A stretch of DNA of 64,000 nt. It comes from Eledone cirrhosa. Its lineage: Eukaryota. A program made the position numbers and the translations under genes. Where the stretch lies: the NCBI GenBank assembly GCA_964016885.1, contig OZ024741.1, positions 73,036,001-73,100,000 of the forward strand. The letters are read 5' to 3'. Positions 238 through 61,690 of the stretch are shown here, one piece after another (position 1 is the stretch's first letter; each line of letters starts with the position of its first letter). The notes under the pieces were generated by a model. That model ran no database searches and was not told the origin of the DNA. It saw nothing but the letters and a program-made list of their open reading frames with translations.

Positions 238-3200
238 TTTACATTCCCATTTGCCCTTTAAAGCATAACTTTCTGTATTTACTGCGGTTATGAGATGCGA
301 TTCTTATTCGGGTACAACTTCTGATTTTAGCCTAAGAAAATATCTATATGCGTGTGTAATTTATACACGCATATATTTATTTTTTTAATTTTCAATTGAG
401 TTCTTAACACGTTGGATTGATAATGTTTTCGAAAAAACTAATTAACCCGCGTGTATATCATTTTTTTCCTCCTTTCGTGGATCGTAGTTGTCTCCCCTTC
501 CCGCTTCGTGTCGCTATCATACTTCCTCAGTCAAAAACTGCTGGAATTTCAAATTTGGCGGTCATTCGATGCGAGAAGGAGCAACTTAACAGACACGATT
601 TTTGACTGCAGTAAGAATTTCTTTCTTATATCAAAGTTTAATGGGCTTCCACTGATGATTTATAAACGCCCACCTAAATATATTCTTACATGAATATATA
701 TTAGGCTTCTAGATAAACTGGAAATATTCTCCCAACTTGTAGAAAACTTATAATGAAACAATTGTTTGGAAAGAGAGATATACTTTAACTTTAATTATAT
801 CTCATAAAATAATACAACTGGTTTTTCCACATTATACATATTGTTCGCACCCAAAACACTTAAATTGGGTTTATATTTAAATATAATCTAATGTTTGTTG
901 AGTGAGATGGTTACCAATCAGAGTTTAGCTTTAAACTATCTCTGTTATTGTATTAAATATTTACTCTTGATTGGCCAGAGGTGTTTATTTCCAGGTACCT
1001 TATGAATTTGACTTTCCGTATTTATTACTGTTGTGAAATGTTGTGGTTTTTTGGGGTTGTAACTTCTCTGTTTTTTAGCCTAAGAAAATATATATATGCC
1101 TATGTATATAATTACATGCATACATTTATTTTCTTTAATTAATTGAGTTCTTTACACGAGGAATTGATATTAGTTTTGAAATAACTAATTAACCCGCGTG
1201 TGTTTTATATTTTACTCTTAATTCGGCCGGAGATTTACATTCCCATTTGCCCTTTAAAGCATAACTTTCTGTATTTACTGCGGTTATGAGATGCGGTTCT
1301 TATTCGGGTACAACTTCTGATTTTAGCCTAAGAAAATATCTATATGCGTGTGTAATTTATACACGTATATATTTATTTTTTAAATTTTCAATTGAGTTCT
1401 TAACACGTTGGATTGATAATGTTTTCGAAAAAACTAATTAACCCACGTGTATATTATTTTTTTCCTCCTTTCGTGGATCGTAGTTGTCTCCCCTTCCCGC
1501 TTCGTGTCGCTATCATACTTCCTCAGTCAAAAACTGCTGGAATTTCAAATTTGGCGGTCATTCGATGCGAGAAGGAGCAACTTAACAGACACGATTTTTG
1601 ACTGCGGTAAGAATTTCTTTCTTATATCAAAGTTTAATGGGCTTCCACTAATGATTTATAAACGCCCACCTAAATATATTCTTACATGAATATATATTAG
1701 GCTTCTAGATAAACTGGAAATATTCTCCCAACTTGTAGAAAACTTATAATGAAACAATTGTTTGGAAAGAGAGATATACTTTAACTTTAATTATATCTCA
1801 TAAAATAATACAACTGGTTTTTCCACATTATACATATTGTTCGCACCCAAAACACTTAAATTGAGTTTATATTTAAATATAATCTAATGTTTGTTGAGTG
1901 AGATGGTTACCAATCAGAGTTTAGCTTTAAACTATCTCTGTTATTGTATTAAATATTTACTCTTGATTGGCCAGAGGTGTTTATTTCCAGGTACCTTATG
2001 AATTTGACTTTCCGTATTTATTACTGTTGTGAAATGTTGTGGTTTTTTTGGGTTGTAACTTCTCTGTTTTTTATCCTAAGAACATATATATATGCCTATG
2101 TATATAATTACATGCATACATTTATTTTCTTTAATTAATTGAGTTCTTTATACGAGGAATTGATATTAGTTTTGAAATAACTAATTAACCCGCGTGTGTT
2201 TTATATTTTACTCTTAATTCGGCCGGAGATTTACATTCCCATTTGCCCTTTAAAGCATAACTTTCTGTATTTACTGCGGTTATGAGATGCGGTTCTTATT
2301 CGGGTACAACTTCTGATTTTAGCCTAAGAAAATATCTATATGCGTGTGTAATTTATACACGTATATATTTATTTTTTAAATTTTCAATTGAGTTCTTAAC
2401 ACGTTGGATTGATAATGTTTTCGAAAAAACTAATTAACCCACGTGTATATTATTTTTTTCCTCCTTTCGTGGATCGTAGTTGTCTCCCCTTCCCGCTTCG
2501 TGTCGCTATCATACTTCCTCAGTCAAAAACTGCTGGAATTTCAAATTTGGCGGTCATTCGATGCGAGAAGGAGCAACTTAACAGACACGATTTTTGACTG
2601 CGGTAAGAATTTCTTTCTTATATCAAAGTTTAATGGGCTTCCACTGATGATTTATAAACGCCCACCTAAATATATTCTTACATGAATATATATTAGGCTT
2701 CTAGATAAACTGGAAATATTCTCCCAACTTGTAGAAAACTTATAATGAAACAATTGTTTGGAAAGAGAGATATACTTTAACTTTAATTATATCTCATAAA
2801 ATAATACAACTGGTTTTTCCACATTATACATATTGTTCGCACCCAAAACACTTAAATTGGGTTTATATTTAAATATAATCTAATGTTTGTTGAGTGAGAT
2901 GGTTACCAATCAGAGTTTAGCTTTAAACTATCTCTGTTATTGTATTAAATATTTACTCTTGATTGGCCAGAGGTGTTTATTTCCAGGTACCTTATGAATT
3001 TGACTTTCCGTATTTATTACTGTTGTGAAATGTTGTGGTTTTTTGGGGTTGTAACTTCTCTGTTTTTTAGCCTAAGAAAATATATATATGCCTATGTATA
3101 TAATTACATGCATACATTTATTTTCTTTAATTAATTGAGTTCTTTACACGAGGAATTGATATTAGTTTTGAAATAACTAATTAACCCGCGTGTGTTTTAT

Positions 3201-4876
3201 ATTTTACTCTTAATTCGGCCGGAGATTTACATTCCCATTTGCCCTTTAAAGCATAACTTTCTGTATTTACTGCGGTTATGAGATGCGGTTCTTATTCGGG
3301 TACAACTTCTGATTTTAGCCTAAGAAAATTTCTATATGCGTGTGTAATTTATACACGTATATATTTATTTTTTAAATTTTCAATTGAGTTCTTAACACGT
3401 TGGATTGATAATGTTTTCGAAAAAACTAATTAACCCACGTGTATATTATGTTTTTCCTCCTTTCGTGGATCGTAGTTGTCTCCCCTTCCCGCTTCGTGTC
3501 GCTATCATACTTCCTCAGTCAAAAACTGCTGGAATTTCAAATTTGGCGGTCATTCGATGCGAGAAGGAGCAACTTAACAGACACGATTTTTGACTGCGGT
3601 AAGAATTTCTTTCTTATATCAAAGTTTAATGGGCTTCCACTGATGATTTATAAACGCCCACCTAAATATATTCTTACATGAATATATATTAGGCTTCTAG
3701 ATAAACTGGAAATATTCTCCCAACTTGTAGAAAACTTATAATGAAACAATTGTTTGGAAAGAGAGATATACTTTAACTTTAATTATATCTCATAAAATAA
3801 TACAACTGGTTTTTCCACATTATACATATTGTTCGCACCCAAAACACTTAAATTGGGTTTATATTTAAATATAATCTAATGTTTGTTGAGTGAGATGGTT
3901 ACCAATCAGAGTTTAGCTTTAAACTATCTCTGTTATTGTATTAAATATTTACTCTTGATTGGCCAGAGGTGTTTATTTCCAGGTACCTTATGAATTTGAC
4001 TTTCCGTATTTATTACTGTTGTGAAATGTTGTGGTTTTTTGGGGTTGTAACTTCTCTGTTTTTTAGCCTAAGAAAATATATATATGCCTATGTATATAAT
4101 TACATGCATACATTTATTTTCTTTAATTAATTGAGTTCTTTACACGAGGAATTGATATTAGTTTTGAAATAACTAATTAACCCGCGTGTGTTTTATATTT
4201 TACTCTTAATTCGGCCGGAGATTTACATTCCCATTTGCCCTTTAAAGCATAACTTTCTGTATTTACTGCGGTTATGAGATGCGGTTCTTATTCGGGTACA
4301 ACTTCTGATTTTAGCCTAAGAAAATTTCTATATGCGTGTGTAATTTATACACGTATATATTTATTTTTTAAATTTTCAATTGAGTTCTTAACACGTTGGA
4401 TTGATAATGTTTTCGAAAAAACTAATTAACCCACGTGTATATTATGTTTTTCCTCCTTTCGTGGATCGTAGTTGTCTCCCCTTCCCGCTTCGTGTCGCTA
4501 TCATACTTCCTCAGTCAAAAACTGCTGGAATTTCAAATTTGGCGGTCATTCGATGCGAGAAGGAGCAACTTAACAGACACGATTTTTGACTGCGGTAAGA
4601 ATTTCTTTCTTATATCAAAGTTTAATGGGCTTCCACTGATGATTTATAAACGCCCACCTAAATATATTCTTACATGACTATATATTAGGCTTCTACATAA
4701 GCTGGAAATATTCTCCCAACTTATAAATGAAACAATTGTTTGGAAAGAGAGATATACTTTAATTTTAATTATATCTCATAAAATAATACAACTGGTTTTT
4801 CCACATTATACATATTGTTAGCACCCCAAACACTTAAATTGGGTTTATATTTAAACTATCTCTGTTATTGTATTAA
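238..4876 (+). repeat. 996-bp tandem array (~4.6 copies, ~99% identical), non-coding, one hammerhead motif per unit; retrozyme-like or tandem PLE pseudo-LTR
   Basis: TTTACATTCCCATTTGCCC recurs at 238, 1234, 2230, 3226 and 4222. The last copy carries small deletions and runs into (TA)n at 4877. Confidence 0.95.
647..771 (+). ncRNA. Type I hammerhead ribozyme motif with extended stem II (copies at 1643-1767, 2639-2763, 3635-3759, 4631-4745)
   Basis: TTCCA-CTGATGA-t-TTATAA...(~80 nt)...TTATAA-t-GAAA-CAATTG-TT-TGGAA. Stem I is TTCCA/TGGAA, the core is canonical, stem III is the palindrome ACAATTGT and the triplet is GUU. Copy 2 reads CTAATGA. Confidence 0.8.
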
Positions 4877-5760
<884 letters not shown>

Positions 5761-6007
5761 AAATATATTTCTATATCATACATAGATGTTTATTTTAACT
5801 CATGCAATTACGGGTGGCTGTGTATCGTGTTGCCTTTAGTCATTAACGCATAAATCTAAGGAAGCTAAAACATTAAAAGGCAAAAATAAGCATGAAAGCA
5901 TATAATTAGGGGAAAGAGGTACTAATAAATGTTATTCTATACGGAATTATAGTGAGTTGCTATTTAGAATATTTCATTAGGTTTATAGTATTTAATTAGG
6001 TTTATAT

Positions 6008-6350
6008 TATTTAAAAGTTTTTCGTATACGGTGATTACAGACTATGATCAATTCCTGTCTTTTATTTAATAAATCGTCCTTAGATTTAGTAATTTCCAAG
6101 ATCTCTCCTGAACATAATCCGGATTCCCTCCTGTTTCCAAGATATGGAGTTTTTTGTAGAATGGTGTACCACGATAACTTAAAATCTATTTTTTTCTTTT
6201 TATAATTATTTACCGCTTCAGCTAAAGATGTGGTGTTTGCTAGTTTAGTATTGTTGAAACTAATAGAGTGTGGTAAAATATTTTCTTAAATGTGTTTGAT
6301 GTAGATCCTATATATGTTTTGTTGGAGTCTGTAGTAGACACAGTGCATTA
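6008..6350 (-). pseudogene. PLE (Hydra-clade type) GIY-YIG endonuclease remnant, with an inverted sub-fragment at 6386-6452
   Basis: Reverse strand reads CTVSTTDSNKTYIGSTSNTFK...LSW...LC..EI...LLNKRQEL..VCNHR, colinear with the C-terminus of ORF 30747-32384. Confidence 0.8.
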
Positions 6351-6861: not shown

Positions 6862-7062
6862 ACGTTATTCCGGGTTGAATCGGAGGTAACCACAGTAAGT
6901 AAGGTACTCAATACATAGCAGAGTATAACAGTTTTAATATAGATGAGATTCTACAGGACTAGAACTGTTTCATTCTTTAGAAATCATCAGGAATCAGAGA
7001 TTCCTGATGATTTCTAAAGAATAAAAAACAGTTCTAGTCCTGTAGAATCTCATCTATATTAA

Positions 7063-7066
<4 letters not shown>
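6859..7066 (-). mobile_element. Fold-back PLE 3'-end insertion in (TA)n with a hammerhead motif in each arm
   Basis: Arms 6930-6995 and 6999-7066. Minus strand 6947-6995 reads GATTC-CTGATGA-tTTCtaaaGAAt-GAAA-CAG..CTG-TA-GAATC, then ATTAAA. The plus-arm copy has GAAA mutated. Confidence 0.8.
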
Positions 7067-7349: not shown

Positions 7350-7541
7350 ATAATAAAAATTTGAAGACTAAAATCCAAAGAGGGCTCGATAAGGATAAAT
7401 ATATATCAAATATATAAGAACCGTAGAGCAAATATTTATTAAAATAACAGATTAAAGTTTAAGCAAAGAATCGCTGCTTTCACCCTTAACGGGATCTTCT
7501 GAAACTAACAAAGTCAATCTGTGTACGAAGAAGTGAATATT

Positions 7542-9256
7542 ACTAAGGATTACCGTAAAACTAATCGGTGCGTCATTAATGAAATCAACGATGCTGGGTT
7601 TAAAATCACCTCTGATCTTAACATCCTGGACCAGACCGAACCTCTGGACCCTATTTGTCCCCACTTTACCCTGAAGGATCACAAATTCAATTTTCCGAAC
7701 AACCCCTCTATTCGGCCTATTAACCCTACGAAGTCCGATTTAGGTAGACTTAGTAAAAGGATTCTTGATAGAATTATACCTGAAATTAGAAGTTTGGCCC
7801 CTCTTTCACTGTGGTACAATTCTTTCGCGGTGATTGGTTGGTTCAACGGCATATGCAACAAGGAACATTGCCGTTTTATCCAATTCGACATCAATAATTA
7901 CTACCCCTCCATCACTTTAGCACTTCTCCTTAGAGCTATCAATTTCGCTAAAACACTCACAGTGGTTAATGGATTTCGAAGTTGATGTCATCCTCAATGC
8001 CCGTAAGTCGGTGATTAATTTCGACGACTCTATTTGGATTAAAAAATCTAATAGTACCCCATTCGACGTGAGTATGGGCGCCAGCGATTCTGCGGAGGTT
8101 ACTGATCTTATCGGCCTTTTCCTTCTTTTCTCTATCAATTCCCCAACGCGGGCGGTGGTTTGTACCGTGATGATGGTCTTTTGACCATGACTAAGTGCTG
8201 GCCACGTGCTTGCGACCGGTTCAGAAAAGAACTCACAGCCTTCTTTAAAGGCTTCAACCTCTCTATACAGGTTGAAGCCAACCTCTCGGTCGTTAATTAC
8301 CCCGACGTTACCCTCAATTTATCGAATGGCTTGTATTACCCGTATAGAAAGGCGAATGATACGCTTAATTACACAAGTAAGCATTCCAACCATCCTGCCA
8401 GCATAACCAAGAACCTGGTAAGAAACGTTTCTTTGAGGCTTTCCCGTCTATCTACTAACGAGCGTATTTTCAACGACCATTCCACATATTACAATGAAGC
8501 TCTTGCTCGGAGTGGATTTGTCAATAAGGTAGCTTATACAGAGTACGAGAATAGACCTAGAAGAAATAGATCCCGACGCATTATATGGTATATCCCACCA
8601 TATAATATGGAGGTGGCCACACCATTAGCTAAGATATTTCTATCCCTTATTACGAAGCATTTCCCCCCCTACACATAAATATAGTAACATTTTAAATAGA
8701 AATACTATTAAAATTTCTTACTCTACGACTCCTAACCCTGCACATAACATCGCAGCTTCAAATTTAGCTAAACTACCTAGCCGTAGGAACACGTGCAACC
8801 CTGTAGTTAGTACTAACTGTAATTATAGGATTCGGGTTGATTGCCCCCTATCCGGGAAATGCCTCTCTAGTAACATTGTCTACAAATGTAAGGTCGAAAC
8901 ATCCACGTCCCGTAGGGCCTACATAGGGTTAACCGCCAATAGATTCAAGCAGCGTCTTTACATGCATACCCATTCTTTTCGTTACCCTCTAAGAAGGAAT
9001 ATGACATCACTTTCAGTTTATATCTGGAGTCTAAAAGACAACCACACCCAATAAGTTACACTGGGAGATCCTAGCTAGGGCTAGATCGTATAACAGAAAT
9101 AAAAGACCATGTGACCTCTGCGCCGCTTAGGCCGTGGAAATACTCTACGCCACAGACCACATCTTAAACAAAAAATCTGAGGCAATTTCGGCTTGTAAAC
9201 ATAAATTGCACAAAACTTTCCTGTATTACAGCCCCACATTATATCCTAACGGATAG
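7542..9256 (+). pseudogene. Frameshifted PLE reverse transcriptase + GIY-YIG endonuclease
   Basis: Motifs FIQFDINNYYPSI, FDVSMGASDSAEVTDLIG, LYRDDGL, WYIPPYN, CPLSGKCLSSNIVYKC...AYIG and ILNKKSEAISACKH are spread over several frames. Confidence 0.9.
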
Positions 9257-10138
9257 TACGATCTATACGCGGATATTTTACGTCTTGATGTGGTAGCTAA
9301 GTATATGTTATGTTTATAACATTACTTATTTGCATAGGTAAGTATATATTACCTGTACGTTTTGTGAAGGTACGTATACTTTCTCGTATGTATATTTGAT
9401 TGTATATGTTATGGCGTGTATTTTTATATATTCTGGTACATATGCTTTTGGTTGTGTGTATACGTGAGTTTTGCGTCTGTGTGAGTATGCTGGTTCGTAC
9501 GTATGTAGGGTGTGTGTATATGTGTACTTCGTGCTTTGGTTGACGTAGGTCTCCGAACATATGTGTATTTACATGTAGGTGTGTGTATGCGCTTGTTATA
9601 TACGTATTTATTTATTTATATACGTTTATTTAATTATTTGTATACACGCACACACACATATTTATATGTGCGTGTATTTGTATACCTATGGCGAGTGTTT
9701 TCGCGTATGCTTGTGTATGTACGTATATGGTTGCGTGTATGTATTTATTTAATTTCTGTTACCTCTGTATTTTATTTACTTTATTCTTAACTCTGTAGCC
9801 GAGAATCATTCGGTTTCCTAGTTAGAATTTTAGTCTACGACTTCAGCTATGCTTTTTACATTGCGTGCAATTGTTCTCAATGCTCCACCTATGACGTATT
9901 ATCTTCGTTTTTTTCCGTTCATTGCTAGAGAACGTCTCTATGAACCACCTAACCATAAACGTAGTTTTGTCTTTGCGTGTAATTGTTTTTCACCGCTCCA
10001 AATAATGACGTATTATATTCGTTTTTTCCTGTTCTTTGCCAGGGAACGTTTCCACAACCAAAGTATCGTCTTCCTGTCTTCCTCCGGTTGCAACGTTTTT
10101 TGAAATATTCACTTCTGCGTTCACAGTTTGACTTTGTT

Positions 10139-10189
10139 AGTTTCAGAAGATCCCGGTAAGGGTGAAAGCAGCGATTCTTTGCTTAAACT
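10139..10189 (+). ncRNA. Hammerhead-like motif with variant core CAGAAGA (inverted copy at 7456-7506)
   Basis: AGTTT-CAGAAGA-tCCCggtaaGGGt-GAAA-GCA..TGC-TT-AAACT, followed by AATAAA at 10205. Both copies share U4A. Confidence 0.65.
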
Positions 10190-10235
10190 TTAATCTGTTA
10201 TTTTAATAAATATATATATATATATAATATATATA

Positions 10236-28556: not shown

Positions 28557-30746
28557 TAGTATTAAGAATACTATTTATGGTTATGTATATAATAAAACCT
28601 TTTATGGTTATACATTTTTTATACAAACCCCAAATAGTGAAAGATAGTCATTTATTACTATCTTATTACCAGTAAGATAAATAGCTCAATGTAATAACAT
28701 CAGTTGTTTTACAGAGCAGTTATATAGAGATTACAATAATCAAAGTTCAGTTTAAATCATTTATTTGCCTACAATTCGGAGCAACTAATTAGTGATCTAT
28801 AACATACTTGACCTCCTTTTCAACACAAGAGACATATAAAAACATATGCATATATTGACCCACAGTGGGATGACATCCATCAAAATGATATAGCATGGCA
28901 ATTTACATATAAAGGTTAAAGGATAAAAATAAAAATAAAAATAAAAATAAAAATAAAAATAAAAATAAAAATAAAAATAAAAATAAAAATAAAAATAAAA
29001 ATAAAAATAAAAATAAAAATAAAAATAAAAATAAAAATAAAAATAAAAATTAAAATTAAAATTAAAATAAAAATAAAAATAAAAATAAAAATAAAGATAA
29101 AAATAAAAATAATAATGAAACATTGGTAGTTTTTGAAGATAAAGCGAGAGGAAAGTTTAGAGTAGTCAGTGTATGAAACAATCTCACGTGTAGCATGCAC
29201 GCGTGTCTTATTTATACAGGCTTAGAGTGCGGCAGATTGTTATTTGCAGGATCAGGCAGTTGAAGCAGGCAATCTATAGTATTATGTGGGCTGAATTATT
29301 AAATCATTTTTTCGCATACACCTGTATGGTATATAATCCCGAATGTAGAGAAACACCAAAATATCAAAAATATCAAACATATTATAAAACATATTATAGC
29401 GTAGGCAAAACAGTCTTCGCGCACACCACCACTCACATAATCCATGAGACGCAATATATAGACCACGGGTCTATCATATAATCCACGATGGTTCAGCATC
29501 TAACCAAGTTATAAACCATATCTTGTCGATTCTTAATCAATAGATCATGTTTAGTTTTGTGTGATGATATTATATTCCGGAAGTGTGTGCGTGACCAAGG
29601 GGAGTTAATGCGTAAGGGGAGGTAACTGGCTGGGTTTCTTAGTTAAATTAAATTTATTATCCTAAATTACACTAATAGTATTTCAAATAAGTGCCTATCA
29701 TATGATGTTATAACTAATTTCTAGAATAGGTTACTTATCTATAGGTTACAGTGTAGTCTATTAAAGATGTATACACCAGGATGATTACCTTCTATTAAGG
29801 GTGTCATATCTGAACATTCTATAAGAATAGTCAGACCTCCAAATCAATGTTCTTTGTAAGTGTATTCCACCCGCAGAACCTGGCAGTGTCCTATTATTAT
29901 ATATGACTCCCGGTAAGCTCTGGGTCATTATATGTCTGAATCCTTGGCCAATTTGAATATCTCCTGGGTGATCTGGAGATCAATTCTCTCATATAAAGAC
30001 ACTAGTCTGGCCATCAAGCAATACATAAACTCCCATCTCACATATAAATTAAATTAGGTTTCTTATCTACAAATTAGAGTGGAGTCTATTAATAAGTACT
30101 AAAGGAGTTCATATCATGATGATTACAATCTAATATGGAGTGCCACACCTTGACAATCTATAAGAAGGGTCGGACTTCAAAATTAATTATATGTATATGG
30201 GTCTCACTACTAATAAGGGTCTTATTACTATTAAGGGTCCTATTACCATACAAGACTCCCGACAAGTTTCGGGTCATTGTATGACTGAATCCCTGGTAAA
30301 TTCAAATATCACCAGGGTGGTCCGGGGACCCGTTCTCTCATCAAAAGACACTAATCTGGTCATCAAGCAACACAGAAATTCCCAACTCATGTATCACCTG
30401 TGCATAATTCATTGTACTCATCGTATAGAATATATAGTCACTTAATTAATAAATTATTTACTTAATCATCAATCTATGTCATGGTAGCACTCCATGCACA
30501 GGATTATGTTAGCACAACCAATACAGTGTCTACAGTTTATATTAATCATATATTTGTGCAATGCAGTTTAAGTAATCCACGGCTAAGATATCAGAATTAG
30601 AAGTACATGGGGGTATCTCCAGGGTAGATGGTACTATAAGCTCGCCACTATTAGCTTTAGAGTATATAAATGGGTGTGGATGTGAGGTGTAAGGTGTGCC
30701 ACTGATGCTAATTGCTAGGGGTGGTGACGGTTCCAGTCTGACATTG

Positions 30747-32384
30747 TTATATATAGGGTTTAAAGTTTTGGAAAGAGTGCCGGAAGCGGTGTTGGCAAGA
30801 TGCGAAGACTTCTGATTTTTTATTAAGGAGATTATGGTTAGAGAAGATGATAGTATGGGTCTCTAGTAGACAGAGGTTACAAAATTTATTAGGTGGTTTG
30901 TACGATGTTGCACTACCTACCACTTCCCATTTAAGTGTATATAGTTTATTTTTAGTTTTTAGATAGTGTATGTAGCTAGATAGTGAAGTGGAGTTGGCTA
31001 GACTGTGTTTTTTGAAAGAGTGGAGGTGCGAATTGTATCTAGTTTTGAAGCAGTTAGAAGTAGAGCCTATATAGGTTTCAGAAGAGTTGTTAGTTGTGAC
31101 TGTACATGAGTATATGATATCCTTGGTTAAGCATTTTTTATCTAAAGGGCAGGTTCTATTTGATCTACAGTTACAATTATTCTGGGTGTTAGTCTGCCGG
31201 TTAATATGCTGTGTAGAAGTCTGGATGTTAGCTATAGGGTTATGGTTATGTGGGTTGTCATTCGCAGCGTTATTGTTTACACTAGTACTATTACTATTAT
31301 TTCTATTGATATTAGGGTTAGTTGCTATAATGTTATTTTGAATGTTATTTTGAAGCTTTATCGTCTGTTGTGATTTAGTTTGTTGGAAGTAAGAATTAAT
31401 TTTTCTTTTATTGCTACTAGCTATGTGGTATGCTAAGTTAGGCGTAGTAGAGTATGAGATTTTAATAGTGTTTTTGTTTAAAAGGCTATGGTACTTGTGG
31501 CCGGATGGGAAGTTTTTATCTAGTAGTGAGAAGAAAGCCCTAGGTAGGTTGGTGGAGACGTTTAGATTGAAAGGAGGGTTGAAAAATGTATTATTTCTTC
31601 TTCTATTTCTGTTTTTTATGTCTGGTGATTTGTTTCCTTTAATGTTCCTATGGTAATTTCTGTGGTGTGGGTTACTTTTGTTGTTATCATCTCTATTAGT
31701 GTGTGTGTGGTTGCTATTCCTATTATTAAATTTTCTCATGGACATGTTGTGTGAAATAATGTTGTAGCTATGCGTTTTTGTAGGTAGGAACTCTATCCCT
31801 GTATTATGGCCTGATCTAACTAATGCCTGATTATAATATTGCGAGTTATTGTTAAATGTGTTTACGTCATATGATAGATTAGAGATTCTATTAGATACTC
31901 CCTTAGAGATAGAGTTTAATATAGATCTAGGGTGGATAGACTTGGTATCTACGTAAATGAGTTTTTCATTAGGTTTGTGGAAAGGTGCATATATCATTGA
32001 GTCTAGGTAGAGTGTGGCGTCTAGGAAGTTGACGTTTTTTGTGTTTTTGTCCATGGTAATACTAAGGTTATAGTTTTTGAATGTTTTGTGCAATAGTTTT
32101 CTAGTTCTTTCTATATTGAATTTTTTATAATCTATAAGTAGAAGTGCATCGTCGCGATACAAACCACCGTTGAGGTAAGGAAGGTCCTTATGGATTTGGT
32201 TAAGTAAATATAGGCCGACTAAATCAGTGACCTGCGCCGAGTCACTAGACCCCATGGTAATGTCGAAGTTGTTTTGCGTATCTTTGCGGGTCCATAATTG
32301 GTCTTTAAAGGTGATTAGTGTTTTACGGGCCGCAAATATGACATCAATCTGGGGTCTAGTCAGGTCACTATTGTCCATGGCCAT
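30747..32384 (-). CDS. PLE reverse transcriptase (C-terminal part) + GIY-YIG endonuclease; open for 545 aa, with RT homology continuing upstream through a frameshift to ~32570
   Basis: FDITMGSSDSAQVTDLVG, GLYRDDAL, FNPPFN, CNCRSNRTCPLDKKC, IIY...TYIG, CNLCLLE and LLNKKSE...CQH. Upstream frames give FIQFDINSYY and ILDKIIP. Confidence 0.9.
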   Translation of the reverse strand: MAMDNSDLTRPQIDVIFAARKTLITFKDQLWTRKDTQNNFDITMGSSDSAQVTDLVGLYLLNQIHKDLPYLNGGLYRDDALLLIDYKKFNIERTRKLLHKTFKNYNLSITMDKNTKNVNFLDATLYLDSMIYAPFHKPNEKLIYVDTKSIHPRSILNSISKGVSNRISNLSYDVNTFNNNSQYYNQALVRSGHNTGIEFLPTKTHSYNIISHNMSMRKFNNRNSNHTHTNRDDNNKSNPHHRNYHRNIKGNKSPDIKNRNRRRNNTFFNPPFNLNVSTNLPRAFFSLLDKNFPSGHKYHSLLNKNTIKISYSTTPNLAYHIASSNKRKINSYFQQTKSQQTIKLQNNIQNNIIATNPNINRNNSNSTSVNNNAANDNPHNHNPIANIQTSTQHINRQTNTQNNCNCRSNRTCPLDKKCLTKDIIYSCTVTTNNSSETYIGSTSNCFKTRYNSHLHSFKKHSLANSTSLSSYIHYLKTKNKLYTLKWEVVGSATSYKPPNKFCNLCLLETHTIIFSNHNLLNKKSEVFASCQHRFRHSFQNFKPYI

Positions 32385-34330
32385 TATAAGTGCCTTATTT
32401 AATAGGATAGGGGAAATAGAGGTGTAGTAAGAATTGATATCAAATTGAATAAATTTTTTATCCTTGTTATCTTTGATATCTTTGATATCTTTTCAATCAC
32501 TTCACCCGTATTTCCCCATTGTTTAAGGTAAATCTTGCGTTTAATCTGTGGGATGATTTTATCTAAAATTTATATACTCTAAAGCTAAACATTTATATAC
32601 TCTAAAGCTAAACATTTATATACTCTAAAGCTAATAGTGGCGACCTTATAGTACAATCTACCCTGGAGATACCCCATGTACTTTTAATTCTGATATCTTA
32701 GCCGTGGATTACTTAAACTGCATTGCACAAATATATGATTAATATAAACTGTAGACACTGTATTGGTTGTGCTAACATAATCCCGTGCATGGAGTGCTAC
32801 CATGACATAGATTGATGATTAAGTAAATAATTTATTATTAAGTGACTATATATTCTATACGATGAGTACAATGAATTATGCACAGGTGATACATGATTTG
32901 GGAGTTTCTGTGTTGCTTGATGACCAGATTAGTGTCTTTTGATGAGAGAACGGGTCCCCAGACCACCCTGGTGATATTTGAATTTACCAGGGATTCAGTC
33001 ATACAATGACCCGAAACTTGTCGGGAGTCTTGTATGGTAATAGGACCCTTAATAGTAATAAGACCCTTATTAGTAGTGAGACCCATATACATATAATTAA
33101 TTTTGAAGTCCGACCCTTCTTATAGATTGTCAAGGTGTGGCACTCCATATTAGATTGTAATCATCATGATATGAACTCCTTTAGTACTTATTAATAGACT
33201 CCACTCTAATTTGTAGATAAGATACCTAATTTAATTTATATGTGAGATGGGAGTTTATGTATTGCTTGATGGCCAGACTAGTGTCTTTATATGAGAGAAT
33301 TGATCTCCAGATCACCCAGGAGATATTCAAATTGGCCAAGGATTCAGACATATAATGACCCAGAGCTTACCGGGAGTCATATATAATAATAGGACACTGC
33401 CAGGTTCTGCGGGTGGAATACACTTACAAAGAACATTGATTTGGAGGTCTGACTATTCTTATAGAATGTTCAGATATGACACCCCTTAATAGAAGGTAAT
33501 CATCCTGGTGTATACATCTCTAATAGACTACACTGTAACCTATAGATAAGTAACCTATTCTAGAAATTAGTTATAACATCATATGATAGGCACTTATTTG
33601 AAACACTATTAGTGTAATTTAGGATAATAAATTTAATTTAACTAAGAAAACCAGCCAGTTACCTCCCCTTACGCATTAACTCCCCTTGGTCACGCACACA
33701 CTTCCGGAATATAATATCATCACACAAAACTAAACAACATGATCTATTGATTAAGAATCGACAAGATATGGTTTATAACTTGGTTATATGCTGAACCATC
33801 GTGGATTATATGATAGACCCGTGGTCTATATATTGCGTCTCATGGATTATGTGAGTGGTGGTGTGCGCGAAGACTGTTTTGCCTACGCTATAATATGTTT
33901 TATAATATGTTTGATATTTTTGATATTTTGGTGTTTCTCTACATTCGGGATTATATATGTATGCGAAAAAATGATTTAACAATTCAGCCCACATAATACT
34001 ATAGATTGCCTGCTTCAACTGCCTGATCCTGCAAATAACAATCTGCCGCACTCTAATCCTGTATAAATAAGACACGCGTGCATGCTACACGTGAGATTGT
34101 TTCATACACTGACTACTCTAAACTTTCCTCTCGCTTTATCTTCATAAGCTGCCAATGTTTTATTTTTATTTTTATTTTTATTTTTATTTTTATTTTTAAC
34201 CATTATATGTAAATTGCCATGCTATATCATTTTGATGGATGTCATCCCACTGTGAGTCAATATATGCATATGTTTTTATATGTCTCTTGTGTTGAAAAGG
34301 AGGTCAAGTATGTTATAGATCACTAATTAG

Positions 34331-34379
34331 TTGCTCCGAAGAATCCAAACCTCGGTTTGGAGGAAACAATAGTAAGCAA
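34331..34379 (+). ncRNA. Hammerhead-like motif with variant core CCGAAGA
   Basis: TTGCT-CCGAAGA-aTCCAAACctcgGTTTGGAg-GAAA-CAATAG-TA-AGCAA, overlapping AATAAA. The mirror copy at 28765-28784 has lost stem II and GAAA. Confidence 0.7.
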
Positions 34380-34430
34380 ATAAATGATTTAAACTGAACT
34401 TTGATTATTGTAATCTCTCTATATATATAA

Positions 34431-35292
<862 letters not shown>

Positions 35293-57872: not shown

Positions 57873-60104
57873 CAGGGGTCACCAAACTTTTTTCACAGTG
57901 GGCCCGATAACTGAAAGAATGACAAGCGCGGACCGCATAATCATTCTGTTCAATACTTGCAAGCCAGAACGAAAGCTCTGGGAAAAAAGACGAAACACTA
58001 CGTTTAGCATTCCATGTTAATCATGGGTGAGTGGCGTGCAATGCACAAAAAACAAAGACAACCAACATATTTATTTACTAACAAGTTATCAAAGAAGGCG
58101 ACGTTAGGAAAAATATAGTTACATCAGACCTAGTGTGCACATATCCGAATCTTACAAACTAAGCAGCAAAAAAGGTTAGTGAGATTTGTGAAACTGACGT
58201 TTGGCTTTCAAGATATCATCAATGTTTGATTTGGAATTGCTGCATCCAATCAAGAGAATTGCTTTCAAATGTTCATCAGTCAATCTCGTTCGATGTGTTG
58301 ATTTCACATACTTCATTTTTGAAAACGTTTGCTTACAGACATAAGTTGTTCCAAACAATGATGCCATACCAGCGGCAAATTTCTTCAATTTCGGAAACTC
58401 AACATCAGGTAAGAAGCGGTAAAATTCAACAAGTTTTCCTTCTCTGTGCTTCTCTTTCAACAAGTCATTTGCTTGCAAATCAATGAGCTCCAACTGTAGT
58501 TCAACTGGCACATCATCAAGGTTACAATCAAACGGATTCTGGAAGAGAAGAATGTCACTCTCAATTCTGTCGAGATCTGAAAATCTCTCCAAAAAATGCT
58601 TCTTCAAGTCATGAATAATCTTTTTAGGAAAATCGTGGTTGACATCTTCAGCAATTGTAGCGCAAAACTGTTTGAAACAGTGAAAATGAGAGAAGTTTTC
58701 TCTTTCCAGTTGTGCTTCAAACAATGACAGCTTTCTCCGAAATCCTTTGATGATTCTGTAGAGATCACAGACGAGGTTATCCTTTCCCTGAAGTTTCAAG
58801 TTCAGTTCATTCATGTGGGATGCGATGTCGACCAAAAATGACAACTTTGACAGCCAGGTAGGATCTGACAGCTGTGGATCAGCTCTATCTTTTTCAGTGA
58901 GAAAAACATCTATTTCGTTTCGGAGCTTGTAAAAACGAAACAGGACTTTACCGCAGCTGAGCCACCTCACTGCTGTGTGATAAGGCAAGTCACAGAAATC
59001 AGAATCAATTTCTTCAAAGAAAAGCCTGGAACTGACGGTGATTGAGTGCATGTCCCCGAATGAAGTTCACAGCAGAAACGAGTGGTTTCAGTACACAAGA
59101 AATATCCAAGTCTTTCCCACAAAGTGCTTGCTGATGTATGATACAGTGTATGAACAGAGTGCCCGGAATTTGCAAATCTTCCAACTGATCCTGATCTGCC
59201 CGACCAGACCCTTCCTCACTCAAGCCATGTTTTTTCCTTCACCAACTGTAACACCTCGAAGCTGATTCCACTGAAAGTTTTCTGCACTTCCATGAAAATG
59301 TCTTTTCCAGTTGTTGTTCCATGCATGCAGCAAACGAATGCCAACTCTTCCGTTATCTGAAAGTCCAAATTGACACCACGAATGAACACGAGAAGTGGTG
59401 AGTACTCGAGAGATCAGTAGACTCATCCAGCGCCAGAGAATACCACAAGTTCCTAGCTTTTTCGCGTATCTAGCACTATTTTCTCTCCAAGTTCTTCTGT
59501 TCCCCGCACAACTGAACTTGCCGAAAGGCTGATACTTCCAAACAAATCGGTTTTCTCAGGACATAAGTCATTTGCTGCTTCCATCATACACTCTTTGATG
59601 AAGTTGCCATCAGTAAACGGTTTTCCTCGCTCTGCTAACTTATTTACTATTTTGTAACTTGTACGAGTGACAGCTTCATTTTCAGCAAACTTTCTCGTGA
59701 AGAGATTTCTCTGAGTTTCTAAACCACGTTTCATGGACTCATATTTCTCAGAGCGTAACTTTCCAGAAAACTTTGAATATGTTGATAAATGTTTTGTTTC
59801 ATAGTAACGCCGAAGATTGTACTCTTTCAAAACGGCAACACTTGCGCTGCATACCACGCAACTAGCTTTCTGGTCCTTTGTTTCCACAAAGAAGTACTTT
59901 ACTCCCCAGTCTTCATTGAAAACGCGACACTTGGCGTCCACTTTTCTTAGTAGCCATAATAAAGGGTGAAGAAAACGGGATCTGAAAATGAAAAAGACAT
60001 TGAATTAGAAACATCTCGTGTTCCATCCGTTTTATCAGGCAAATGCAAGTACCGTCGGCGGGCCTGATGAACTGACGTCGCGGGCCGTAGTTTGGTGACC
60101 CCTG
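57873..60104 (-). mobile_element. hAT DNA transposon (Charlie/Buster/SPIN-like), complete ends
   Basis: Perfect 16-bp TIRs CAGGGGTCACCAAACT. Perfect 8-bp TSD CTATAGAG (57865-57872, 60105-60112). Confidence 0.97.
58176..59941 (-). pseudogene. Frameshifted hAT transposase (GTF2IRD2/EPM2AIP1-like family)
   Basis: FNEDW..KYFF...CVVC...[42 protein letters not shown] and FGTTYVCKQTFSKMK...RTRLTDEHL lie in several frames. Confidence 0.92.
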
Positions 60105-61690
60105 CTATAGAGGGATAATACGTTACAAGTGCGACGACGTGCTCGGAGAATCTCTGGGCGTCGAAGACGACGAGCTCACCAGTCAGTTCGGTAGGACGTT
60201 CCACCCGCGACTTATCGACAACTTCCAAAGGTCACTGGCCTGGCAGTGCTACCGAGCAGCTCTACCAGTTCGAGACAAGATCTACAGGCACGGACGCCCC
60301 GGCAAGGATCCTTCCAAGAGGACGTGTCCAAGATGCGAACAGGACATTGAAACCGTCCTGCACGCAATTGTACACTGCCCGGGCGTAACCGACCTGTGGA
60401 ACTACGCAGAACAACTGCTGTCGGGTATTGGACAAATCCAGTTAACTGCCGAGTCCATAGTAATGATTAAACCGCCAACTTCTTTAAAAAACGAAAGAGA
60501 GGCGATTTTCGTCTGTATGGTGACTATGGTGAAAGATGTTATATGGTGGACGAGATTGAGAGGACTGAGGACAGATGCCTTTCTCTCCGGACAACAACTC
60601 ATTCCCTTCTTTAGGTACCACTTAAGACGGAGAATCAGAGTGGAGAGAGAGGCAGTGCATCCCAGTAAATTTACTGAAAAGTGGGTGATTGTGGCAAAAA
60701 TGGCCCGAGTGATTGGGCCTTCTCTGTATATAAACCTGTAGGTTGAAGAGAACAAAAGGAAGAAAGGAGTACTAACACAACATGCTCCTGAAGTTGAGGG
60801 TTGTTCTATCGACGGGGTATTAAACAACCTATTTGTGGTGCCTCCCCACTATTGGGGATTTCGATTGTTATATTTGCTTGTTTCATATTTTTACATGATT
60901 GTATGTAAAATCCCCGGCATGTCTTTGTTTTGTCCCCTTTTCTTGTGCGCCCTTGTGGCTAATAAAGAAATATATCTATTTATCTCTACGTACATATAGA
61001 TATAACCTACCCACCCTCCTAACTATCAGATCTCTATCTCCCTCCTCTATCAACCTACCTCTCTATCCACCTCACTCATACCTACCCCTACTTCTCTAGC
61101 TATCTACCTACCCAATACCTACCTACACACATATTACCTACCTACCTCACTTCCTCACCATCAACCTACCTGTCTGCGATCCTACCCACACATCTACTCA
61201 CATACCTGTCCATCCATCTACCTGTCTATGTATCTAATCTAACAACCAGGAAATCCGAAGGGAATAAAATCAATAAGAGAGAAATTAAAATAAAACAGAA
61301 AGAAAAAAAAAGGGCCTCAGCGAGTGAAACCTGCCAGGATTTGAAATTAAACAGAAATAGCCCAATGTGGATGGGGGGGTAGGGAGGCGTTGTAGATGAT
61401 GATGGTAGGGAGTGGGAGTGGGGGTGACGGTAATGGGGTGAGTGGTGGCGGTGAAGGGGTGGGGGGAGTGGTGGTCGTGACGGTGAGGGGGTGGTGGTGG
61501 CGGTGGTGATGGTGATGGCGACGGTAGTAATGATGATGGTGAAGGTGGAGGTGATGATGATGGTGATGATTATGACGCAGGTAGGGAGGGTTTCACGTTC
61601 AAATGTTTTGGTGTGAATCTATGCATGTGTGTGTATGTATGTATATATGTATGTACGCATGTATGTATGTATGTCTTCATGTATTTACGC

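What the first reader, a model, noticed from the sequence alone, without database searches (positions are those of the whole stretch)
238..4876. Kilobase-unit tandem array with a hammerhead in every unit: candidate large retrozyme / circular-RNA element
Seen: ~4.6 near-identical 996-bp non-coding units, each with a complete type I hammerhead fold (core 652-658, GAAA 755-758, predicted cleavage after 766). The array starts in TA/CA-rich DNA and ends in (TA)n ~135 nt after the last ribozyme, like the PLE 3' ends elsewhere in this window. Known: metazoan non-LTR retrozymes are tandem repeats of a few hundred bp with type I HHRs, self-cleave into monomers that circularise, and are thought to be mobilised by PLEs. 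Inference: read-through transcription would release ~996-nt monomers or circles, larger than typical, and the array may be a reverse-transcribed concatemer or an amplified PLE pseudo-LTR.
Basis: partly seen in the sequence, partly recalled or inferred. Interest (0 to 1): 0.88.

Follow-up and report, generated by a model that had tools for sequence, protein, structure and literature searches.

The report
Kilobase hammerhead retrozyme with candidate driver
This repeat is one copy of a non-coding mobile element present at over 2,000 places in this animal genome, and the ends of its copies suggest that it cuts its own RNA, likely closes it into a circle, and is probably copied back into DNA by a Penelope-type jumping gene whose start signal it shares.

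Summary
The array is real: 4.7 units of 996 bp (238-4878). Only 3 of its 5 hammerheads are whole. It is one insertion of a dispersed non-coding family (at least 2,167 exact 3' ends in (TA)n) with a fixed 3' end 192 nt past the predicted cut and variable 5' ends. The type I hammerhead has a branched 95-nt stem II insert, covaries across subfamilies, and varies at core positions 7 and 17 only. 5' ends pile up 0-30 nt behind the cut site (preset replication 10 of 59, 3.05 expected). Units within an insertion share lineage variants, pointing to a monomer (likely circular) template. The start site matches an autonomous Hydra-clade Penelope-like family at 32 of 38 nt. Corrections: 1 kb is not beyond published retrozyme sizes and arose from a 730-bp unit by internal duplication; this array looks like a 1.7-unit insertion later amplified locally, not a copied concatemer. 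No RNA evidence was available. The scan noted similar footprints for 310-538-nt families in this genome, but not this family. Verdict: new variant of a non-LTR retrozyme, useful as a test system.

The parts
238..4878 (+). Whole insertion: 5'-truncated piece 238-958, whole units 959-1954, 1955-2950, 2951-3946, and terminal unit 3947-4878 with two deletions
643..771 (+). Hammerhead 1: stem I 647-651/767-771, core 652-658, U.U 659/754, stem II 660-665/748-753, GAAA 755-758, palindromic stem III 758-765, predicted cut after 766; core intact
666..747 (+). Branched insert on stem II: GCCC 668-671 (predicted pseudoknot with GGGC 643-646), hairpin P2a 673-705, hairpin P2b 707-744 (one pair broken at 712 in units 1-4)
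1639..1767 (+). Hammerhead 2, core G5 to A at 1650, predicted inactive
2635..2763 (+). Hammerhead 3, core intact, predicted cut after 2758
3631..3759 (+). Hammerhead 4, core intact, predicted cut after 3754
4627..4745 (+). Hammerhead 5, boxes intact but 10-nt deletion in stem II/P2b
930..990 (+). Reverse-transcription start site read through (junction 958|959; also 1954|1955, 2950|2951, 3946|3947); 32 of 38 nt match to the start site of the Hydra-2 element; weak 4-bp hairpin 5-6 nt past it
949..1462 (+). Internal duplication of about 260 bp (949-1213 and 1201-1462, 74% alike) that turned the 730-740-bp unit into the 996-bp unit
4856..4878 (+). Family's fixed 3' terminus, joined to the (TA)n target
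4878..5776 (.). (TA)n-rich target tract
7425..10210 (+). Decayed copy of the candidate driver family (Hydra-2): inverted 5' piece 7425-7505, broken ORF 7509-9240, 3' end at about 10210; a neighbour, not part of the array

Best explanation
The array is one insertion of a non-coding, hammerhead-bearing retroelement family with over 2,000 copies, which is likely transcribed, predicted to cut itself into unit-length RNA, likely closed into a circle, and probably copied into (TA)n by a Hydra-clade Penelope-like enzyme that starts at a fixed internal site 192 nt behind the cut. Shown: the family, its fixed 3' end, variable 5' ends, (TA)n targets, conserved ribozyme core, and an excess of 5' ends just behind the cut. 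Inferred: insertions with two whole hammerheads (11 of 148) are the sources; the ribozymes pair as dimers through the palindromic stem III; a cut but unjoined RNA gives the 160-195-nt stubs because the enzyme runs off its 5' end; a joined circle lets it run past the cut and past its own start, giving 0.2-2 units; the driver is probably the Hydra-2 family (about 0.6). The array here was probably inserted as about 1.7 units and later gained three units by unequal crossing-over.
For: 2,343 exact hits of a 20-mer over GAAA/stem III and 2,167 exact 3' junctions, controls 0. In loci picked by the hammerhead motif alone, 24 of 26 end at the fixed site. Of 148 insertions picked by the 3' end, 110 pass the cut site, 36 pass their own start. 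5' ends within 30 nt behind the cut: 18 of 89, 5.6 expected (window chosen after looking); preset replication 10 of 59, 3.05 expected, p 8e-4; after stratifying by TA microhomology 28 against 13.3, p 7.5e-5; none is a split element; the bin over the foot of the stronger stem II has 0.32 ends/kb against 5.27. Core: position 7 has four alleles in subfamily A (46/10/9/2) while the other six sites have at most one variant copy; position 17 is U, A or C, never G, in 120 of 120 rows; stem III swaps AATT for GATC; base of stem II swaps U.U for G-C. Tandem copies share 387 variants against 159 differences over 12,033 sites in 28 loci; 5 ordered differences recur and no two loci share two. Circular fold z -5.7 for both unit sizes. 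Start site scores 44 against Hydra-2, 0 of 3000 shuffles, 21 for other unit windows, at most 26 for the other coding families seen; Hydra-2 has 713-aa open frames.
Against: No transcript, cleavage or circle was observed. The excess behind the cut recurs on the second pass (4 of 20, counted), which a pure 'linear monomer or perfect circle' model does not predict; partly cut multimers or a stall at the joint fit better. Most ends in the window sit 11 or 29 nt behind the cut, at TA runs and inside a conserved hairpin, not at the cut; in the replication set the non-TA part of the window shows no excess (1 event). 75 of the 159 within-insertion differences use an allele seen at another locus, so conversion or template switching occurs, and gene conversion could also homogenise units. 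Stems I and II show no true double-sided change; covarying pairs are 5 and come from few events. 114 of 738 columns are polymorphic, so 11 invariant core sites are not significant in subfamily A alone. The start-site match is AT-rich, only about 1.3 Mb of a 3-Gb genome was examined for rival drivers, and the family does not use Hydra-2's second start site (0 hits). Hammerhead folds lie 3.6-11.5 kcal/mol above the minimum. Only 1 of 9 predicted frog retrozymes cut in vitro (10.64898/2026.07.22.740005).
Confidence: 0.68

Rival explanations
1. Same family and driver, but the templates are linear read-through transcripts of tandem loci in which each hammerhead cuts only about one time in seven; no circle is needed, and units are kept alike by gene conversion and unequal crossing-over in DNA.
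For: Similar stop rate at first and second passage of the cut site (4 of 20 on the second); local amplification is seen here and at L084; an anole Penelope-like protein used uncut RNA and started internally in vitro (PMC11167929).
Against: Most loci are under 2 units (147 of 148), so linear copying would shorten the family each round; ordered unit differences are not inherited (5 recurrences, none paired); each step of a ladder-like subfamily series is fixed in all units.
Confidence: 0.2
2. The hammerhead fold is kept as a structural or protein-binding element and does not cut; the excess of 5' ends comes from the enzyme stalling at the hairpin and stem I just behind it and joining through TA microhomology.
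For: Ends cluster at two TA runs inside a conserved hairpin; U.U at the base of stem II and a 95-nt insert may slow folding; cleavage was dispensable for insertion in vitro and no RNA ends at the cut were found in anole (PMC11167929).
Against: Only positions 7 and 17 vary, as catalysis allows; stronger helices upstream cause no stops; the excess survives TA stratification; an axolotl hammerhead with the same U.U base and 2-bp stem III cuts as a dimer (PMC7229834).
Confidence: 0.08
3. The array is a local satellite, the duplicated terminal repeat of one coding Penelope-like element, or an assembly expansion.
For: Three of the units do look locally amplified; the length of this one array was not checked against long reads.
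Against: Over 2,000 dispersed insertions with shared ends; no coding frame joined to the unit in the loci examined; units carry their own and graded variants; related copies occur in runs of other organism labels.
Confidence: 0.04

Closest known systems
Metazoan non-LTR retrozymes (Cervera and de la Pena 2020, PMC7229834, parts 2-4 of 6 read; Li, Clavereau and Pollet 2026, 10.64898/2026.07.22.740005, parts 1-3 of 5 read, supplements not seen)
   Same: Non-coding AT-rich tandem units, one type I hammerhead each, short palindromic stem III, strongly folded predicted circle, Penelope-like elements in the same genome. U.U at the base of stem II with a 2-bp stem III matches axolotl HHR_Amex2.
   Different: Unit 730-1000 bp, at the top of the published range (170-400 nt tested; up to 972 bp predicted). 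Branched 95-nt insert on stem II. Most copies are 5'-truncated and under one unit. A start-site motif shared with a named driver, where a 2020 review says no such motif is seen (PMC7761336, passages). Circles are shown for coral, mussel and axolotl, not here.
Hydra clade of Penelope-like elements (Craig et al. 2021, PMC8557442, passages and section 11 read)
   Same: (TA)n target, fixed internal start, 5' truncation, partial tandems, hammerhead near the end; 32 of 38 nt shared at the start site with the Hydra-2 family here.
   Different: No ORF; start is 192 nt behind the cut (about 27 nt in Hydra-2 by my reading, about 46 nt in Hydra-1); no second 'tail' start; inverted 5' arms are rare (4 of 146 5' flanks).
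Poseidon element of the green anole, PAc (Frangieh et al. 2024, PMC11167929, parts 1-2 of 4 read)
   Same: Reverse transcription starts inside the RNA, downstream of a hammerhead, into AT-rich DNA.
   Different: There cleavage was not needed in vitro and no RNA ends were seen at the cut; here the core is conserved and genomic 5' ends pile up behind it.
Putatively non-autonomous Chlamys elements such as MRC1 (PMC8557442, passage)
   Same: Head-to-tail multi-copy insertions that resemble an autonomous family at the 3' end.
   Different: Most Chlamys lack a canonical hammerhead; different clade and host kingdom.

Membership tests
Metazoan non-LTR retrozyme | Tandem units, each with a type I hammerhead | tested here: met
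   Family level; in this array 3 of 5 are whole, units 3 and 4 consecutive
Metazoan non-LTR retrozyme | No coding capacity, GC under 50% | tested here: met
   Longest stop-free frame 83-85 aa, no match to a Hydra protein; GC 31%
Metazoan non-LTR retrozyme | Dispersed multi-copy family alongside autonomous Penelope-like elements | tested here: met
Metazoan non-LTR retrozyme | Unit of a few hundred bases | tested here: inconclusive
   730-1000 bp; above the tested examples, at the edge of the 51-972 bp predicted range
Metazoan non-LTR retrozyme | Self-cleavage of the transcript | not testable with these tools
   Indirect only: core conservation and 5'-end excess
Metazoan non-LTR retrozyme | Accumulates as circular RNA | not testable with these tools
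   No RNA holder listed; indirect:
Type I hammerhead ribozyme | CUGANGA, GAAA and UH boxes with three helices, stem I open | tested here: met
   113 of 120 distinct rows have CUGANGA, 118 GAAA, 120 UH, 117 a palindromic stem III (rows partly preselected by flanking anchors); 94% of cells paired
Type I hammerhead ribozyme | Match to an Rfam hammerhead model | tested here: not met
   the long stem II insert is the likely reason (inference)
Type I hammerhead ribozyme | Tertiary contact between loops 1 and 2 | tested here: inconclusive
   A GGGC/GCCC pairing is conserved (3 pairs invariant, 1 broken in 2 of 11) but shows no covariation
Autonomous Penelope-like element or its pseudo-LTR | RT plus GIY-YIG ORF joined to the repeat, or homology over the terminal repeat | tested here: not met
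   only the 38-nt start block is shared
Penelope-type insertion footprint | Second start site (tail) and frequent inverted 5' arm | tested here: not met
   0 tail junctions genome-wide for the pattern used; inverted piece in 4 of 146 flanks
Hydra clade (for the candidate driver) | C-terminal GIY-YIG, CxCx5C linker, DKT and RW[KR] motifs, (TA)n target | tested here: met
   Read by eye in the 713-aa frame of L364 and the 830-aa frame of L305 against section 11 of PMC8557442; no tree built

The most novel reading that the evidence does not exclude
The element can be copied whole only after its RNA is cut and joined: the enzyme starts 192 nt behind the cut, so unjoined monomers leave stubs and circles leave full and longer-than-unit copies. 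[quoted passage not shown]
Probability: 0.4. Interest if true: 0.72.

Novelty: new variant of a known kind. Interest (0 to 1): 0.5.

Why it matters
The retrozyme life cycle (cut, circularise, copy by a Penelope-like enzyme) has been proposed since 2014-2020, but in the papers read the copying step and the driver are not shown, and the one in vitro study found the hammerhead dispensable. This family gives a named RNA, a named candidate enzyme with intact frames, a predicted start nucleotide and a predicted stub length, so the step can be tested directly. The hammerhead variant also shows that searches with short stem II limits miss large families. The size of the unit is not itself remarkable.

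Tried and rejected
Rfam, both thresholds: no hammerhead. Expression: no RNA holder listed; the contigs laid (4 of 11 runs) follow the copy profile of the genome and say nothing on RNA. An independent check of this locus's private deletions in reads was not obtained. RNA-editing scars: none; A>G 2.07/kb against T>C 2.50/kb in private changes, 8 against 4 in shared ones. Lesions at the cut or joint in read-through copies: none above background. Second start site: 0 hits for the one pattern tried. The 830-aa Hydra-1 family (window 30747-32492) as parent or driver: shares only an 8-nt motif at its end and the stem III palindrome. Coding frames next to sampled insertions are nested neighbours with unrelated 3' regions. 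No parent element carrying the long-stem-II hammerhead was found; the genome search scores only top candidates, so this is not absence. Convergence of the start site towards Hydra-2 in the youngest subfamily: three changes go towards it, one away; midpoint root only; kept as a lead. Literature searches for a prior description of this family or of 5' ends piling at the cut: none found; PMC5785218 was not held (title only); preprint supplements could list similar families. Two loci (L261, L290) were dropped as local duplicates from then on; they are in the count.
Full report
Observation. The array exists as described in position and period: starts at 238, 1234, 2230, 3226 and 4222, four copies 98.8-99.4% alike and a last partial copy at 96%. 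The hammerhead motif is not chance: 0 of 4000 shuffles of one unit meet even a loose descriptor. But only 3 of 5 copies are whole. Unit 2 has G5 to A (1650) and unit 5 lacks 10 nt of the stem II region. Stem II opens with U.U and carries about 95 nt; Rfam does not recognise it. The unit codes for nothing.

It is a dispersed family. A 20-mer across GAAA, stem III and stem I has 2,343 exact hits in the 3.0-Gb genome; a 28-mer joining the 3' end to (TA)n has 2,167, of which 1,093 are of this subfamily's type; controls 0. Among the first 30 hits of the hammerhead motif (26 distinct loci), 24 end at one fixed site and 2 are cut short. That site lies 192 nt behind the predicted cut (186 in the shorter unit); the 138 nt in this array reflect a deletion. 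I mapped 150 insertions chosen only by their 3' end and order on contig C1 (first 90, rows 41-100; 2 dropped as local duplicates): median length 519 nt, 110 of 148 pass the cut site, 36 pass their own start site with a seamless joint, 11 hold two whole hammerheads, 1 reaches two units. This is the footprint of target-primed reverse transcription from an internal start, as described for Penelope-like elements (PMC11167929, parts 1-2; PMC8557442, passages).

Size. Older subfamilies have a 730-740-bp unit. The 996-bp unit arose by duplication of about 260 bp (949-1213 and 1201-1462, 74% alike). A tree of 88 3' regions is ladder-like, with the 996-bp form showing the least spread (median 1.0% from its majority, against 1.8-6.0%; midpoint root only). 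So the size is not new.

The ribozyme is under selection. Across 120 distinct rows the core is CUGANGA in 113, position 17 is U, A or C and never G, and stem III stays palindromic while changing from AATT to GATC; the base of stem II is U.U in 102 and G-C in 16 (anchors preselect rows in part). In subfamily A, position 7 has four alleles (46, 10, 9, 2) while the six other sites of the box have at most one variant copy; with 114 of 738 columns polymorphic, the invariance alone is not significant there. On 11 diverse rows 94% of cells pair, with 5 pairs changed on both sides, 4 of them in a hairpin of the stem II insert and 1 in stem III; these are few events among kin. The insert forms a three-way junction, and a GGGC/GCCC pairing between the 5' flank of stem I and the insert is conserved without covariation (predicted pseudoknot). 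U.U plus a 2-bp stem III has a precedent in axolotl HHR_Amex2, which cuts well only as a dimer (PMC7229834). Both unit sizes fold strongly as circles (z -5.7, 40 shuffles each). The copies in this window are somewhat decayed.

5' ends mark the cut. In the first set 18 of 89 ends fell from 30 nt behind to 3 nt before the cut, 5.6 expected (window chosen after looking). I fixed the window in a note and tested 60 new loci: 10 of 59, 3.05 expected, p 8e-4. TA runs attract ends everywhere, so I stratified: 28 against 13.3 overall (p 7.5e-5), 10 against 3.9 in the replication (p 0.004), though there 9 of the 10 lie in TA zones. None is an element split by a later insertion. The bin over the foot of the longer stem II has 0.32 ends/kb against 5.27, which favours a hard RNA end trimmed to the nearest TA over a structural stall. 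Against a simple picture, the excess recurs on the second pass (4 of 20, counted by hand).

Monomer bottleneck. In 28 multi-unit loci of subfamily A, the two copies share 364 lineage and 23 private variants and differ at 159 of 12,033 sites; only 5 ordered differences recur and no pair of loci shares two; in 16 loci of the shorter unit none recurs. Linear copying of multi-unit sources should pass on ordered differences and shorten the family; a circle does neither. Gene conversion could mimic part of this, and 75 of the 159 differences use an allele seen elsewhere. No editing scars and no lesions at the joint were found.

This array's own history. Units 1-4 share three derived alleles that unit 5's 3' part lacks, and units 2-5 share derived alleles that unit 1's 5' part lacks; one private allele is in all five. 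The simplest reading is an insertion of about 1.7 units whose middle was later tripled by unequal crossing-over. An 8-unit locus (L084) shows block-wise variants of the same kind.

Candidate driver. A self-search had one non-repeat hit, at window 7425-7462. It is the start site of an autonomous family, here called Hydra-2, with a decayed copy at 7425-10210, 11,061 exact hits of a 37-mer, a pLTR-ORF-pLTR copy and 713-aa open frames in 9 of 150 listed matches. Its linker, DKT and RWR motifs fit the Hydra clade, which targets (TA)n. The match is 32 of 38 nt and in register with the junction in both; score 44 against 21 for other windows of the unit, 0 of 3000 shuffles, and at most 26 for the other coding families found in 1.3 Mb of fetched DNA. 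Nothing else is shared, and Hydra-2's second start site is not used. A 2020 review states that animal retrozymes show no motif pointing to a driver (PMC7761336, passages). The genome holds many other Penelope-like families, so a closer one may exist.

Standing. It works like, and by every testable feature is, a metazoan non-LTR retrozyme; cleavage and circles remain untested. New are the branched stem II, the replicated excess of 5' ends at the cut, and a start site shared with a named family. Searches found no paper on this family or on such an excess; preprint supplements were not seen. Earlier unchecked notes of this scan describe related footprints for 310-538-nt families in this genome and none for this sequence. 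Interest 0.5.

Noticed in passing
window 7425-10210; L345, L359, L364: Hydra-2 Penelope-like family: over 11,000 copies, two start sites about 88 nt apart, and a hammerhead-like fold whose first box reads CAGAAGA (U4 to A) with U.U at the base of stem II.
   Followed up: partly
window 28740-34500; ORF 30747-32492 (-): Hydra-1 element, 5'-truncated, with a long inverted 5' arm; the family has 830-aa open frames and a hammerhead-like motif with CCGAAGA and the same AATT stem III palindrome.
   Followed up: partly
window 5777-6347 (-): 3' fragment of a third Hydra-like element directly beyond the (TA)n tract that ends the array.
   Followed up: no
window 6960-7065, 21461, 38190, 42392 (-): Four further short hammerhead-bearing ends of other families; the one near 6990 is a head-to-head pair with U.U at the base of stem II.
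   Followed up: no
window 58176-60004 (-) and 60091-60741 (+): Fragments with hAT dimerisation and Spin-doc zinc-finger matches, and a zf-RVT fragment.
   Followed up: no
L025/L029/L030, L014, L279, L165: Insertions with mixed unit lengths (995 and 711 bp by loss of one internal repeat) or extra pieces that begin just behind the cut site, suggesting template switches.
   Followed up: partly
tree of 88 loci: Start-site changes on the way to the youngest subfamily mostly move towards the Hydra-2 sequence (three towards, one away).
   Followed up: partly
run X6, loose end at window 2751: A related copy in another organism label has a different stem III sequence followed by GUC.
   Followed up: no
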